A stretch of 25,075 nt of DNA from Candidatus Kaiserbacteria bacterium (GCA_043757305.1 JAYVPP010000056.1:1-25075), one strand, 5' to 3'. Positions 14,011 through 17,817 are shown, counted from the first letter of the stretch. Program-made: numbers and translations. Notes: generated by a model from the sequence alone, not told the origin.

Positions 14011-14673
14011 TTATTTATCTTCAATTTCTCTTAAAATTCTTAATTTCTCTTTATCAATTGCGACCCTGTTTATCCTGGGATAACTCTGAGAAATCAGTAG
14101 ATATATATTTGAGTATAAAGGGGACAATAGAAAGTTTGTCTTTTGCATACCTAAACAGCGAATATATGCCATATAATCAAACGTGCATTCTTCCATCATA
14201 GAGATATCAGTTCTGAAGTCCACCCAGCCTTTCTTGATTGCTTCTACTGCATTACTTTTCTCAGACAAGGGTAATTTTCGAAAATCTGTGTACAAAGACC
14301 ACAAGTGAACAATATTTCCATTATAACGGTTAAACCAGATATTGAGCTTAATAGTTCTATTAAGCAACTCTATATTAGATATTGTTTCTATAATTTTTTC
14401 ATCAACTAGGTCTAGTTCTTCTATCCAGTTGGCCCAAAGTTCTCCTTTTTCTAAAGAGGTGATTAGCGCAGAGATAAAACGCTTTGATTCAACAAGATAA
14501 GTTTGATTAGTTGCAGTTATAATCTGTAACTTAGAAATATTTTTCCTTTCAATAATATATTTTTCATAGCCCGACTTTAGTAGCCATGCAAGGAAAACGA
14601 ACGTAGCCGTTATAAAAGACGCTTCCAAGGAGCCAACTCCGGCTTGAAATTTTTGAATCAAAAAATCAATCAT
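14011..14673 (-). CDS. AT-rich hypothetical protein with one N-terminal TM helix
   Basis: 220-aa ORF with an ATGA overlap to the ruvB stop. Sampled 60-nt lines have 13-22 G+C, against 44 in the adjacent ruvB line. Confidence 0.8.
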   Translation of the reverse strand: MIDFLIQKFQAGVGSLEASFITATFVFLAWLLKSGYEKYIIERKNISKLQIITATNQTYLVESKRFISALITSLEKGELWANWIEELDLVDEKIIETISNIELLNRTIKLNIWFNRYNGNIVHLWSLYTDFRKLPLSEKSNAVEAIKKGWVDFRTDISMMEECTFDYMAYIRCLGMQKTNFLLSPLYSNIYLLISQSYPRINRVAIDKEKLRILREIEDK

Positions 14674-15689
14674 TTCCCTAAATGTTCGTAGGCGTCCTGG
14701 GTGGCGGTGCGGCCGCGCGGTGTGCGCTCGATGAGGCCTTGGCGGAGGAGGTGTGGCTCAATAACGTCTTCGATGGTTGCTTGTTCTTCTGAGAGCGCGG
14801 CCGCGAGAGTGTTAAGACCCACCGGACCACCGCGATACTTTTCGATGATGAGCCGCAAGAGCTGGCGGTCGAGTGCATGAAGACCGCGTTCGTCGATATC
14901 GAGCAGTGTAAATGTTTTTGAGATAATGTTTGCATCGATATCGCCACCTTCGAGCTGTGCTAGGTCACGGCAGCGTTTGAGGAGGTAGTTGGCCGTGCGC
15001 GGCGTAGCACGCGCACGCTTGGCGATGGCACGGAATGCGTCGGTTGACGCTTTGATGCCGAGCACCTTTGCAGAGCGCGAAAGAATCGTGACGATCTCTT
15101 CATCACTGTAATACTCCAGGCGGAAGGTACCACCAGAAAAACGTGAGCGGAGTGGCGCTGAAAGCATTGCGATGCGTGTGGTGGCAGCCACGAGTGTAAA
15201 CGGAGGGAGGTCGAGCTGCACGGTGCGTGCTGAGGGACCTTTGCCGATGATAAGATCGAGAACGCCAGACTCCATCGCAGGGTAGAGGACTTCGTCCACG
15301 GCCTTCGAAAGGCGGTGTATTTCGTCGATAAAAAGCACATCGCCAGGAGAGAGGTTTGTGAGGATAGAGGCGAGGTCGCCAACACGCTCGATAGCTGGAC
15401 CAGACGTCGTGCGCATGTTGGTGCCGAGGGTCTGAGCTATGAGGTTTGCAAGCGTCGTCTTGCCCAAACCTGGTGGCCCATAGAGCAAAATATGCTCGGG
15501 AGCATGACCGCGCTCACGCGCTGCAGTGAGCAAAATACGGAGGTTTTCCTTCGTTTTTTCCTGTCCTACGTACTCCTCCCAGGTCTTCGGACGAAGGGTT
15601 TGGTCGAGTGAGCCATGACCTCCGTGGGTATAGGCAAAAACCTCACTTGAGACGGGTTCGGGCGAAGATGAAGGGGGAGTGCTTGACAT
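14670..15689 (-). CDS. ruvB: Holliday junction branch migration helicase RuvB
   Basis: LRPKTWEEYVGQ, GPPGLGKTT, LFIDEIHRL, ATTR..LSAPLRSRF, RTPRGR. Confidence 0.98.
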   Translation of the reverse strand: MSSTPPSSSPEPVSSEVFAYTHGGHGSLDQTLRPKTWEEYVGQEKTKENLRILLTAARERGHAPEHILLYGPPGLGKTTLANLIAQTLGTNMRTTSGPAIERVGDLASILTNLSPGDVLFIDEIHRLSKAVDEVLYPAMESGVLDLIIGKGPSARTVQLDLPPFTLVAATTRIAMLSAPLRSRFSGGTFRLEYYSDEEIVTILSRSAKVLGIKASTDAFRAIAKRARATPRTANYLLKRCRDLAQLEGGDIDANIISKTFTLLDIDERGLHALDRQLLRLIIEKYRGGPVGLNTLAAALSEEQATIEDVIEPHLLRQGLIERTPRGRTATQDAYEHLGK

Positions 15690-15711
15690 AAAATATATTC
15701 TATGCTAATAT
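15683..15711 (+). promoter_or_regulatory. Near-consensus sigma70 promoter facing away from ruvB
   Basis: TTGACA-N17-TAATAT with an extended -10 TG; predicted TSS near 15718. Confidence 0.6.
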
Positions 15712-15798
15712 AGCATTGTTAGTTCGCATACCCATTATAGCAGCAGACGAGGGTATTTCACGCAAGGCTCGCTCGGGCCTCGTTTCATCGAAAAAAGA

Positions 15799-15948
15799 AT
15801 ATCCAGCCGATAACTCTCGGAACAACATTGGTTGGTTCGCGGGGGTGTTTTGGTCCTCTACTTCGGTAGTGCCACTGGGGCATACCTTGGCAAAACAATC
15901 ACTTTTCATACAAGAGAAGGTTTGTTCCGAGAGTTATATGTTGGATAT
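15799..15948 (+). ncRNA. Candidate structured ncRNA with 6S-RNA-like architecture
   Basis: 9-bp plus 16-bp closing helices (ATAACTCTCGGAACAA 15810-15825 / TTGTTCCGAGAGTTAT 15922-15937), central bubble, inner helix 15843-15852/15891-15900, C(UUCG)G hairpin 15858-15869. G-U pairs favour the + strand; lies between a promoter and a terminator. Confidence 0.55.
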
Positions 15949-15954
15949 GAAAAG

Positions 15955-15991
15955 AACGCTGTGCTTTGGACTATAGCACAGCGTTTTTTTT
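15955..15991 (+). terminator. Intrinsic terminator (probably also serves pilB on the minus strand)
   Basis: AACGCTGTGCT / AGCACAGCGTT 11-bp stem, with a T8 run at 15984-15991. Confidence 0.85.
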
Positions 15992-16041
15992 GTGCACTCT
16001 TGACCACGCAAAATCTCTGTTCGTAAATATAGACGATAATT

Positions 16042-17709
16042 TTAGGAGACTCGCAAGTCGACGACACGAGCAAGCTCGTCAAGCGAGGTGTCTCCAGAGA
16101 GCACTTTAAATACACCATCTTGCTGCATAGTAGGGATGTGCTGTGAGAGGGCGATAGCCTCGATGGAGGCATCACGAGCATCCGAAATAACAATGTCCGA
16201 AATCTCTTTCGTCACTCGAATACCTTCATAGACACCTGCGCGTCCACGGAAACCGGTACCGTTACACACATTGCATCCGACCGCATCGTACACAACTGTC
16301 GCACTCGTTGGCGCTGAAACATATGTCGTATTTCCTAGTAGTGTATTCATAAGCGTAAGCTCGTCGTCATGGACTGGTCGTGCTTTTTTGCACGTGTTAC
16401 ACAGCACACGAATGAGGCGCTGCCCAATGATGAGGTTGACGGCGCTTCCTATCATTTCGCGATCAATACCGAGGTCGAGGAGGCGAGGAAATGCACCAGC
16501 GGCACTGTTGGTGTGAAGCGTCGAGAGCACAAGGTGGCCGGTGAGCGCAGCGTGGAGCGCGGTCTCTGCAACTTCGCGGTCGCGGATTTCTCCGACGAGA
16601 ATGACATCAGGATCTTGGCGAAGTATTGCACGAAGGCCCTCTGCGAAATGATAGTGTTCACCCACTTGTGTTTGTACGATGCCCTCGATTTTATATTCGA
16701 TCGGGTCTTCAAGTGTAATGATTTTTACTTCAGGTGTATGGATGTGTCGAAGGAGTGCATAAAGTGCGGTAGTTTTTCCCGAGCCAGTAGGACCAGTGGT
16801 GATGATCATGCCGTTTGGGCGCTTTACTTCGTCTTCTACCACTGCTTTGAGAACAGGGTTAAAGCCAAGATCCTCTATACCTTTGATGGCTGAGCTCGGG
16901 TCGAGCAAACGCATGACGATGGATTCGCCAAAACCTCCGGGAATGATGGACGAACGAATATCGAGCTGTTTGCCGTCGTGCGCAATGGTAAAGCGGCCGT
17001 CTTGCGCGATATCACTTTTGTTAAGCTTCAATCCCGAGAGGAGTTTGAGACGTGAACGAAGAAGCTCATAGAGTGGTTTTGGAATATCGAATACATCGAC
17101 GAGTACGCCGTCGAGACGGAAGCGGAGTCGTACGACACTTTCCTCTGGTTCAATATGAACGTCAGAGGCATGAAGCGCGATGGCACTTCCTAGGATAACC
17201 TCGAGGATCTCAGACACTTGGTGCGCATGGTCGCTGCCCGAAAGTGCACCGATGCGCGTACCAACGTCGGCAAGTGTTTTTGTTCGGCTTGAGATCTCAT
17301 CGACCTGTTTTTCAACAAATGACATGACACCCTTTTCACTTGCCTCCGTTTGTTTGATGTCGTGATAGCGCGCCCATGCATAGATGAGGCTCGTCTCGGA
17401 ACAAATAAAGACAGATACTGCGAGACCTTGTGCTTTGAGTGCGTCAAGCACTTCTTTCGTGTGTGTTTTATTGGGGTTGCGGAGCGCTACTGAAATGCGT
17501 GAGCCTGCACGCTCAAAGATAGCGACCTCAGCAAGACGCGCAATGTCTTCTTGAACTATGCGAAGCGCCTCAGTGTTAATGGTTGTGCCCTTCAGGTCTA
17601 TATAACTCTGACCATACTTTTGTGCAAGCGCGCTCATGAGCGTTTCTTCCTCGTGGCGCTTGAGCTCCGAGAGCTTGTCGCCGAGCCTAGTATCGTCAAA
17701 GTGCGCCAT
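16042..17709 (-). CDS. pilB: Type IV pilus / T2SS assembly ATPase (PilB/GspE family)
   Basis: GPTGSGKTT, TLEDPIEY, LRQDPDVILVGEIRD, TGHLVLSTLH, CNTC...CNVC Zn site. ATG 17709 preferred over GTG 17727. Confidence 0.9.
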   Translation of the reverse strand: MAHFDDTRLGDKLSELKRHEEETLMSALAQKYGQSYIDLKGTTINTEALRIVQEDIARLAEVAIFERAGSRISVALRNPNKTHTKEVLDALKAQGLAVSVFICSETSLIYAWARYHDIKQTEASEKGVMSFVEKQVDEISSRTKTLADVGTRIGALSGSDHAHQVSEILEVILGSAIALHASDVHIEPEESVVRLRFRLDGVLVDVFDIPKPLYELLRSRLKLLSGLKLNKSDIAQDGRFTIAHDGKQLDIRSSIIPGGFGESIVMRLLDPSSAIKGIEDLGFNPVLKAVVEDEVKRPNGMIITTGPTGSGKTTALYALLRHIHTPEVKIITLEDPIEYKIEGIVQTQVGEHYHFAEGLRAILRQDPDVILVGEIRDREVAETALHAALTGHLVLSTLHTNSAAGAFPRLLDLGIDREMIGSAVNLIIGQRLIRVLCNTCKKARPVHDDELTLMNTLLGNTTYVSAPTSATVVYDAVGCNVCNGTGFRGRAGVYEGIRVTKEISDIVISDARDASIEAIALSQHIPTMQQDGVFKVLSGDTSLDELARVVDLRVS

Positions 17710-17817
17710 ATGGCTCAATGGTAGCACGACACATGATGCAGAAACCTATTTTTCTACAGAAATAGAGTGATTTTTATGCCCCTGTTATGCCATTGTAAGA
17801 GTGGTACAATGCCTGCT

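What the first reader, a model, noticed from the sequence alone, without database searches (positions are those of the whole stretch)
15683..15991. Promoter- and terminator-bounded structured RNA with 6S-like architecture between ruvB and pilB
A TTGACA-N17-TGcTAATAT promoter and a + strand T8 terminator enclose about 270 nt with no credible ORF. The core (15799-15948, 150 nt) folds into a 9-bp helix, a 2x2 loop, a 16-bp perfect helix, and a large asymmetric bubble (17-nt 5' side; 3' side able to form CTTTTC/GAGAAG). An inner helix follows, capped by a C(UUCG)G hairpin and a TGCC/GGCA hairpin. G-U pairs fit the + strand. A long helix, open bubble and second helix is the open-promoter mimic shape of 6S RNA. 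The 5' 80 nt hold two mutually exclusive helices (ATACCC/GGGTAT versus ACGAGG/CCTCGT). This is either a divergent CPR 6S RNA or a new ncRNA class.
Basis: partly seen in the sequence, partly recalled or inferred. Interest (0 to 1): 0.75.

Follow-up and report, generated by a model that had tools for sequence, protein, structure and literature searches.

The report
New conserved RNA gene beside ruvB
The gap between the DNA-repair gene ruvB and the pilus gene pilB holds a real gene for a tightly folded, rod-shaped non-coding RNA that nearly every relative of this ultra-small (Parcubacteria) bacterium keeps in one copy. It matches no catalogued RNA family, is probably not the cell's 6S RNA, and its job is unknown.

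Summary
The element is real. A consensus promoter (15683-15711), a 150-nt hairpin core (15799-15948) and a hairpin plus T8 terminator (15949-15991) are all present, and the + strand folds far better than shuffles (z -6.8).

The core is a conserved RNA. A model built from it hits one locus in 149 of 151 genomes of the same family. It also hits 86 of 121 genomes of the order and 49 of 151 of the class. It hits none outside the class. On 94 distinct sequences, 93.7% of cells pair and 35 of 40 pairs show double changes.

The 6S reading is not supported:
- There is no Rfam hit, even at E 10.
- The proposed open bubble is closed by a covarying helix (P2b).
- The same genomes carry a second small RNA downstream of ndk that does have 6S architecture and weak RF00013 hits.

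SRP RNA is excluded because the lineage has no Ffh. The -35 box overlaps the ruvB start codon here and in about 113 other loci.

In this family the RNA is a three-way-junction variant with a non-conserved 80-nt 5' leader. No transcript data were found, and the function is unknown. The most likely role is a trans-acting, protein-binding RNA.

This scan has already reported the same family on at least ten other genomes.

The parts
15683..15711 (+). Sigma-70-type promoter: -35 TTGACA (15683-15688), 17-nt spacer, extended -10 TG-n-TAATAT (15703-15711). The -35 box overlaps the ruvB start codon (CAT on the + strand, 15687-15689).
   Evidence: 10/12 match, TG present. Among 169 distinct homologous loci, 163 have a promoter scoring at least 10; of these, 160 have a perfect TTGACA and 162 have the TG. 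TTGACAT occurs in 113-115 loci, and the longest ruvB ORF starts there in 98 of 153.
15718..15798 (+). 5' leader of about 80 nt, counted from the predicted start about 7 nt after the -10 box. It holds small lineage-specific hairpins and is not part of the conserved RNA.
   Evidence: The start site is inferred from promoter geometry. The distance from the -10 box to P1 varies from 17 to 106 nt (median 51) across loci. The leaders of the two same-genus genomes are unrelated in sequence.
15799..15807 (+). P1, 5' strand. It pairs with 15940-15948 (9 bp, including one G-U).
   Evidence: In one search, helix 1 has 8 of 8 pairs with changes on both sides and 87% of cells paired.
15810..15825 (+). P2, 5' strand. 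It pairs with 15922-15937 (16 perfect bp). Most relatives have the sequence CUCUAAGCAA here. This genus has changed four to five positions, each with a compensating change.
   Evidence: In one search, helix 2 has 13 of 16 pairs with double changes and 97.5% of cells paired.
15829..15834 (+). P2b, 5' strand (UGGUUG).
   Evidence: Constrained folds show this helix in 94 of 94 sequences. The cognate versus non-cognate duplex test supports it.
15839..15891 (+). P3 arm. It comprises a lower helix (relatives: CGAGGAC opposite UAUCCUUAG, with a conserved G / UA internal loop), a conserved UGG/CUG tandem wobble, an upper G-U-rich helix, and a variable apical hairpin 15858-15869 capped by UUCG.
   Evidence: In one search, helices 3 and 4 have 11 of 13 pairs with double changes and 93% of cells paired. 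The invariant columns lie here.
15902..15919 (+). P4 side hairpin (CUUUUC, 6-nt loop, GAGAAG), branching from the 3' strand at the junction.
   Evidence: In one search, helix 5 has 3 of 3 pairs with double changes. The arm is absent in the shortest (127-nt) relatives, L150 and L173.
15922..15948 (+). 3' strands of P2 (15922-15937) and P1 (15940-15948).
   Evidence: As for P1 and P2.
15949..15991 (+). Intrinsic terminator: a G+C-rich stem (15955-15964 / 15976-15985) followed by T8. It has an A-rich 5' flank, so it can also act as a terminator for the convergent pilB gene.
   Evidence: Sequence and fold. The bidirectional use is inferred.
14670..15689 (-). ruvB, divergent from the RNA gene. Its start codon lies inside the RNA promoter's -35 box.
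   Evidence: ruvB is divergent and upstream in 151 of 159 loci that have enough flank.
16042..17727 (-). pilB/gspE-type ATPase gene, convergent with the RNA gene. Its stop codon lies 51 nt beyond the T-run.
   Evidence: pilB is convergent and downstream in 161 of 167 loci.

Best explanation
This is a stand-alone gene for a stable, rod-shaped structured RNA from a family that no database catalogues. The family is found in Parcubacteria/Paceibacteria.

Shown here:
- It has its own consensus promoter and terminator.
- It is present in one copy per genome.
- It has a covarying fold made of a 25-bp closing stem (P1-P2), a junction, a continuing arm (P2b-P3) and a small side hairpin (P4).
- The strongest sequence conservation lies in P2 and in lower P3, which holds a G/UA internal loop and a UGG/CUG tandem wobble.
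- It keeps a fixed position head-to-head with ruvB, with its -35 box overlapping the ruvB start codon.

Inferred:
- The mature RNA is the ~150-nt core. The variable 5' leader and the terminator may be trimmed off, perhaps by RNase III acting at the long P1-P2 duplex.
- It works in trans as a protein-binding RNA, either as a scaffold or a decoy. The conserved P3 loops and the P2 helix would be the recognition surface.
- It is not the cell's 6S RNA. That role fits the separate RNA linked to ndk.
- Because the two promoters overlap, transcription of this RNA and of ruvB probably compete for RNA polymerase.
For: - Promoter, terminator and fold.
- Homologues found with covariance models: 149 of 151 genomes in the family, including 126 of 126 high-quality genomes, at one locus each. 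Also 86 of 121 in the order and 49 of 151 in the class. Three of four 'negative' genomes that were inspected show weak syntenic hits.
- Covariation: 93.7% of cells paired against 79.4% in shuffles, 35 of 40 pairs with double changes, and slid controls at or below 53%.
- P2b helix.
- Strand: conserved U-G pairs, and a forward score of 112 bits against 47 for the reverse strand.
- No conserved ORF.
- Other housekeeping RNAs are accounted for elsewhere. RNase P RNA lies on another contig, tmRNA is present in relatives, and a 6S-like RNA lies downstream of ndk.
- Synteny and the promoter/start-codon overlap.
Against: - There is no evidence of transcription. No confirmed RNA run holds the sequence. 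The two runs of unknown kind hold only short, low-depth contigs of related strains, and these also cover the promoter.
- No protein partner has been identified, and no known RNA 3D module was recognised.
- The most conserved letters lie inside helices. That could also reflect alternative pairings rather than protein contacts.
- In this genus the otherwise conserved P2 sequence has changed. Recognition of P2 therefore cannot be strictly sequence-specific.
- The tight linkage to ruvB and pilB could mean a local, cis role.
Confidence: 0.55

Rival explanations
1. It is a divergent 6S RNA, or a second 6S paralogue like 6S-2 of Bacillus. It would bind RNA polymerase holoenzyme by mimicking an open promoter, with the weak P2b helix melting to give the bubble.
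For: - It is a rod about 55 bp long with paired ends.
- It has a central irregular region with a hairpin on the 3' side, a feature of many 6S RNAs (established knowledge).
- It has a strong housekeeping-type promoter and occurs in one copy.
- P2b is short, averaging -6.5 kcal/mol.
- Rfam's 6S model finds no match over its cut-off in this order.
Against: - RF00013 gives no hit on this RNA, even at E <= 10.
- The centre is a helix kept by covariation plus a three- or four-way junction, not a single-stranded bubble.
- A separate RNA downstream of ndk (G000 contig C85:14496-14643) has a closing stem, a 17-nt single-stranded 5' bubble strand, a 3' bubble hairpin and an apical stem.
- That ndk-linked RNA gets RF00013 hits of 21-23 bits in three genomes at the syntenic place.
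- It co-occurs with the ruvB-side RNA in 23 of 24 other family genomes searched.
Confidence: 0.13
2. It is mainly a local (cis) device. A very strong promoter is interlocked with the ruvB start, and a stable hairpin RNA ends in a bidirectional terminator. Together these would set ruvB-yebC-ruvC and pilB expression by promoter competition and by insulating the convergent transcripts.
For: - The -35 box overlaps the ruvB ATG here and in about 113 loci.
- ruvB is divergent in 151 of 159 loci and pilB is convergent in 161 of 167, across several orders.
- The terminator has an A-run on one side and a T-run on the other.
Against: - Promoter competition needs no 150-nt covarying fold with conserved internal loops.
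- A ruvB -10 box at leaderless spacing inside the spacer is not clearly enriched: 31 of 115 loci against 21 in shuffles, with a shuffle maximum of 33.
- The 5' leader length varies freely.
Confidence: 0.12
3. It is the missing SRP (4.5S) RNA of this lineage in a divergent form.
For: It is a universal, single-copy, hairpin-shaped RNA in genomes where RF00169 and RF01854 find nothing.
Against: - The partner protein is not found. SRP_SPB (PF02978) gives no match in 41 genomes.
- The ffh model gives no match over its cut-off in four closed genomes.
- The own genome has no SRP54 GTPase domain over the cut-off.
- The absence of ffh and ffs in Parcubacteria is published (PMC4508563).
- The RNA has no domain IV motif.
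Confidence: 0.01
4. It is a DNA-level palindrome or the remnant of a mobile element (MITE-like), not an RNA gene.
For: It has 27-bp terminal inverted repeats. Foldback repeats are common in Patescibacteria (earlier scan notes).
Against: - It is single-copy in every genome and always in the same place.
- It has a conserved promoter in one orientation.
- Conserved U-G pairs would be A-C mismatches on the other strand.
Confidence: 0.02

Closest known systems
6S RNA (SsrS; Rfam RF00013)
   Same: A stand-alone, abundant-type promoter. Length of about 150-200 nt. The 5' and 3' ends pair in a long closing stem. The overall shape is a rod with an irregular centre and a small hairpin on the 3' side of that centre. 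One copy per genome.
   Different: There is no covariance-model match. The centre is a conserved helix (P2b) plus a junction instead of an open bubble. The conserved sequence motifs (P2, CGAGGAC/UAUCCUUAG, UGG/CUG) are unrelated to 6S. The same genomes hold another RNA, next to ndk, that fits 6S better.
Ms1 RNA of Actinobacteria (binds RNA polymerase core)
   Same: A lineage-restricted, highly structured, stand-alone RNA that standard 6S models do not recognise.
   Different: No sequence or structure relationship was tested or seen. Ms1 is about 300 nt. The comparison rests on my own knowledge and on an earlier scan note, so it is a lead only.
Bacterial SRP RNA (4.5S; RF00169)
   Same: A single long hairpin whose conserved letters sit in small internal loops of the distal arm. 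Universal and single-copy within its range.
   Different: The lineage has no Ffh or FtsY. There is no domain IV motif and no GNRA-capped helix 8. The conserved loops lie far from the apex, and the apex itself is variable.
Orphan structured bacterial RNAs found by comparative genomics (for example the raiA motif RNA and OLE RNA)
   Same: Conserved, covarying, lineage-restricted folds of unknown biochemical function, recognised from sequence alone.
   Different: Different folds and different lineages. None of them matches in Rfam 15.

Membership tests
6S RNA (RF00013) | Scores at or above the family's covariance-model threshold (46.4 bits) | tested here: not met
   No RF00013 match on window 15600-16100 at E <= 10. 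None in the whole genome at E <= 10.
6S RNA (RF00013) | A large central bubble, single-stranded on both sides, between the closing and apical stems | tested here: not met
   The two sides pair as P2b in 94 of 94 sequences. Cognate duplexes average -6.46 kcal/mol against -3.45 for non-cognate. Many relatives add a hairpin (P2a) on the 5' side.
6S RNA (RF00013) | 5' and 3' ends pair in a long closing stem, and the total length is about 150-200 nt | tested here: met
   P1 plus P2 give 25 bp. The core is 150 nt.
6S RNA (RF00013) | Binds sigma-70 holoenzyme and templates product RNA | not testable with these tools
   No RNA data were available.
6S RNA (RF00013) | It is the genome's best 6S-like locus | tested here: not met
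   L215:795-948 (contig C85) scores 22.3 bits with RF00013 and folds into the canonical 6S shape. A model of it finds one copy in 23 of 24 other family genomes.
SRP RNA (RF00169 / RF01854) | Matches the covariance model, and the genome encodes Ffh with an M domain | tested here: not met
   The published absence is in PMC4508563.
tmRNA / RNase P RNA | Matches the model or has a tRNA-like domain | tested here: not met
   ARAGORN finds only tRNA-Lys in the window. RNase P RNA lies on contig C105. Canonical tmRNA is found elsewhere in relatives.
The ruvB-side junction RNA of Paceibacteria (unpublished; reported repeatedly by this scan) | Lies between a divergent ruvB and a convergent pilB, with a consensus promoter whose -35 box overlaps the ruvB ATG | tested here: met
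   Window 15683-15689. The family-wide pattern is shown.
The ruvB-side junction RNA of Paceibacteria (unpublished; reported repeatedly by this scan) | Helices P1, P2, P2b, P3 and P4 with the conserved P3 motifs | tested here: met
   The window scores 150 bits with R1 and 112 bits with the order-level model R2.
The ruvB-side junction RNA of Paceibacteria (unpublished; reported repeatedly by this scan) | A fourth arm (P2a) that makes a four-way junction | tested here: not met
   The segment is 11-14 nt with no hairpin in 13 of 13 aligned members of this family. The arm is present in 60 of 81 others. The window therefore carries a three-way-junction variant, and the fourth arm is not a defining feature.

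The most novel reading that the evidence does not exclude
The RNA is the RNA subunit or dedicated decoy of a still unknown ribonucleoprotein. It would be housekeeping for many Paceibacteria, making it a new core cellular RNA comparable in rank to 6S or SRP RNA in a lineage that has lost SRP. Its physical interlock with ruvB might reflect a role in the response to DNA damage or DNA uptake.
Probability: 0.3. Interest if true: 0.85.

Novelty: categorically new. Interest (0 to 1): 0.6.

Why it matters
Parcubacteria have some of the smallest bacterial genomes (about 0.5-1.2 Mb in those searched) and have even lost the signal recognition particle. Yet almost every genome of this family, and many beyond it, spends about 300 bp and one of its best promoters on this RNA. 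A conserved single-copy RNA of unknown function in such a pared-down cell probably does something important.

It is absent from Rfam and from the papers searched. Genome annotation therefore leaves this gap empty. It may also be mistaken for 6S RNA, while the real 6S-like gene next to ndk is overlooked too.

The three-way-junction form seen here, and 127-nt relatives that lack both side arms, show that the functional part is the rod (P2, P2b, lower P3). That narrows what any experiment needs to test.

Tried and rejected
- **Rfam.** Scanning the window at gathering thresholds, and the region at E <= 10, gave only chance-level hits such as terminator look-alikes.
- **SRP RNA.** Rejected because there is no Ffh or FtsY.
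- **tmRNA or tRNA-like.** Rejected. The own assembly simply lacks its tmRNA, probably in a gap.
- **Holliday-junction mimic replacing RuvA** (an idea from an earlier scan note). RuvA is present in the own genome and in 142 of 151 class genomes whether or not the RNA is detected. This family's RNA also has only three arms.
- **Conserved leaderless ruvB -10 box inside the RNA promoter spacer.** Not clearly enriched.
- **The 86-aa ORF.** Not conserved.
- **Transcript evidence.** The indexed runs that hold the sequence are DNA metagenomes, apart from two of unknown kind. Those two hold short contigs of related strains that also cover the promoter, so they say nothing about transcription.
- **Terminator count across loci.** My crude filter (hairpin at or below -8 kcal/mol plus T5) found only 30 of 168, although several loci it missed have obvious terminators. 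I draw no conclusion from it.
- **Literature searches.** Searches for a described CPR or Parcubacteria RNA of this kind found nothing.

Full report
**What is in the window**

ruvB occupies 14670-15689 on the minus strand and a pilB/gspE-type ATPase gene occupies 16042-17727 on the minus strand. The 352-bp gap between them holds, on the + strand:
- A near-consensus promoter: TTGACA at 15683-15688, a 17-nt spacer, and TG-n-TAATAT ending at 15711.
- About 80 nt of leader.
- A 150-nt hairpin, 15799-15948.
- A G+C-rich hairpin followed by T8, 15949-15991.

The 277-nt transcript folds at -103.4 kcal/mol. Shuffles average -71.1, giving z = -6.84. The opposite strand folds less well, at z = -4.64.

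**It is a conserved RNA, not chance**

BLAST of the region against relatives found the core in both other genomes of the genus and in three further genera of the family. The promoter was also recognisable in three of these five loci. Six sequences already showed compensating changes in P2.

Covariance-model searches gave these counts:

| Model | Group searched | Genomes with a hit |
|---|---|---|
| R1 (six sequences) | Family | 149 of 151, one locus each; 126 of 126 high-quality |
| R1 | Order | 86 of 121 |
| R2 (44 sequences) | Class | 49 of 151, consistently within families |
| R2 | Other classes of the phylum | 0 of about 144 |

The class figure is an underestimate. I inspected four R2-negative genomes by synteny. 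Three have a strong divergent promoter and a long-stemmed RNA in the ruvB-upstream spacer, and they give weak R2 hits of 21-34 bits when the filters are off.

Record titles of pattern matches name Parcubacteria/Paceibacteria groups such as Nomura-, Adler-, Taylor-, Kaiser- and Zambryskibacteria.

I aligned 99 forward-strand matches, 94 of them distinct. On this alignment:
- 93.7% of cells form standard pairs, against 79.4% after shuffling.
- 35 of 40 pairs show changes on both sides.
- Sliding the partner columns drops pairing to 38-53%.

This alignment was fitted to the model, which favours the structure. However, an independent MAFFT/RNAalifold analysis gave the same helices, with 32 of 40 pairs showing double changes.

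The strand is settled by three observations. One U-G pair is kept in 75 of 94 sequences. The forward score is 112 bits against 47 for the reverse strand. The promoter orientation is the same in 163 of 169 loci.

There is no conserved reading frame.

The conserved fold is a rod:
- P1 (9 bp), a 2x2 loop, then P2 (16 bp).
- A junction.
- P2b (4-8 bp), small internal loops, then P3 with a variable apical hairpin.
- A small hairpin, P4, branching from the 3' strand at the junction.

In folds constrained only by the covarying helices, these two segments pair in all 94 sequences. In an alignment-free test, each sequence's own two segments form a better duplex than segments swapped between sequences. 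The averages are -6.46 and -3.45 kcal/mol, the cognate duplex is better in 87 of 94, and Wilcoxon p is about 6e-16.

The TGCC/GGCA hairpin is incompatible with conserved P3 pairs.

Sequence conservation is highest inside helices:
- P2: CUCUAAGCAA opposite UUGCUUAGAG in most lineages.
- Lower P3: CGAGGAC opposite UAUCCUUAG, with a G / UA internal loop.
- A UGG/CUG tandem wobble.

**What is particular to this window**

1. Its family lacks the extra 5'-side hairpin (P2a) that gives most other lineages a four-way junction. The hairpin is seen in none of 13 aligned family members and in 60 of 81 others.
2. Two 127-nt relatives also lack P4. The rod is therefore the invariant part, and the side arms are accessories.
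3. This genus has rewritten four to five positions of the otherwise conserved P2 sequence, with perfect compensation. P2 is therefore needed as a helix, not as a fixed sequence.
4. The 80-nt 5' leader, with its alternative helices, is lineage-specific. The distance from the -10 box to P1 ranges from 17 to 106 nt, and the leaders differ within the genus.

**Is it 6S RNA?**

Probably not.

RF00013 gives no match on this RNA, even at E <= 10. The defining open bubble is absent.

A better candidate also exists. Weak RF00013 hits in two relatives lie just downstream of ndk. In the window's own genome, ndk is on contig C85. A 150-nt RNA about 300 nt downstream of it scores 22.3 bits with RF00013. 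That RNA folds into the textbook 6S shape: a closing stem, a 17-nt single-stranded 5' bubble strand, a hairpin on the 3' bubble strand and an apical stem (z = -5.3). A crude three-sequence model of it finds one copy in 23 of 24 other family genomes and in 4 of 16 other families of the order.

Both RNAs therefore coexist in the same genomes. A two-6S situation, as in Bacillus, cannot be excluded, but nothing argues for it.

**Other known RNAs**

SRP RNA was a serious rival, because no SRP RNA model hits this order. But the partner protein is not found either:
- SRP_SPB gives no match in 41 genomes.
- There is no ffh match over the cut-off in four closed genomes.
- The own genome has no SRP54 GTPase domain over the cut-off.

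This agrees with the published absence of ffh and ffs in Parcubacteria (Nelson and Stegen 2015, PMC4508563).

RNase P RNA is on contig C105. Canonical tmRNA is present in relatives and is simply missing from this 93%-complete assembly.

**Context**

The gene order is remarkably fixed. ruvB is divergent and upstream in 151 of 159 loci. pilB is convergent and downstream in 161 of 167.

The -35 box reads TTGACAT in 113-115 loci. Its last three letters are the ruvB ATG on the other strand, and the longest ruvB frame starts exactly there in 98 of 153 loci. This interlock may be why the pair has never been separated. It also implies that the two promoters compete for polymerase.

I could not show that a ruvB -10 box at leaderless spacing is conserved inside the spacer.

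RuvA is present almost everywhere, and this family's RNA has three arms, not four.

**Mechanism**

Shown: this is a conserved, independently promoted, single-copy structured RNA.

Inferred: it is a trans-acting RNA that binds a protein through lower P3 and P2, acting as a scaffold or decoy. It may be trimmed to the core by a double-strand-specific nuclease at P1-P2.

I put 0.55 on this reading, 0.13 on a 6S-type polymerase binder, 0.12 on a mainly cis role at the ruvB/pilB locus, and very little on SRP RNA or a mobile element.

No transcript data could be found. This is the main gap.

**Novelty and prior notes**

Nothing in Rfam 15 or in the searched literature describes this RNA.

Within this scan it is not new. 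At least ten earlier reports on other genomes describe the same ruvB-side RNA, and three describe the ndk-linked compact 6S-like RNA. One earlier check warned against over-stating distribution and noted the lack of RNA data. I have therefore given counts rather than 'class-wide' or 'phylum-wide' claims.

What this window adds:
- The three-arm variant.
- The demonstration that P2b closes the supposed bubble.
- The co-occurrence test against the ndk-linked 6S-like RNA.

Noticed in passing
L215:795-948 (own genome, contig C85:14496-14643; outside the window): A compact 6S-like RNA gene lies about 300 nt downstream of ndk. It scores 22.3 bits with RF00013 and has the canonical 6S fold. A three-sequence model finds one copy in 23 of 24 other family genomes and in 4 of 16 other families of the order.
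   Followed up: partly
window 15971-15979 and 16000-16005: A family-specific module, ACTATAGCA followed 19-23 nt later by TTGACC, lies just downstream of the RNA core. It occurs in 31 of 168 distinct loci against 0.7 in shuffles. In this window the first box is in the terminator loop and the second lies after the T-run. In other genera TTGACC sits in the terminator loop. On the minus strand the first box reads as an extended -10 (TGCTATAGT). Its meaning is unknown.
   Followed up: partly
own genome contig C85:14271-14395 (L215:572-696): A perfect long inverted repeat, with arms containing CCCCAGACCTACCCCC, is inserted between the ndk terminator and the 6S-like RNA. It is absent at this place in the two relatives inspected. 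It may be a foldback repeat or MITE.
   Followed up: no
L003:1640-1760 (genome G001, same genus): The 3' strands of P2-P1 (a 22-nt stretch) are duplicated about 95 nt downstream of the core, with an unrelated insert between the two copies.
   Followed up: no
genomes of one family of the class (f136; G296 and three others): The one family in the class sample with no RuvA (0 of 4) also has no detected ruvB-side RNA (0 of 4). No RuvB was found in the one member tested. This may be co-loss of RuvAB and the RNA, but many genomes with RuvA also lack a detectable RNA with this model.
   Followed up: partly
whole genome G000 and 40 relatives: No SRP RNA, no Ffh M domain and no SRP54-type GTPase over the cut-off were found. 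This confirms the published absence of SRP in Parcubacteria (PMC4508563).
   Followed up: yes
whole genome G000: Neither Rfam's model nor ARAGORN finds a tmRNA in this 114-contig assembly, and ARAGORN's tRNA scan of the assembly returned only 31 tRNA lines. Relatives have a canonical tmRNA, so this is probably an assembly gap.
   Followed up: partly
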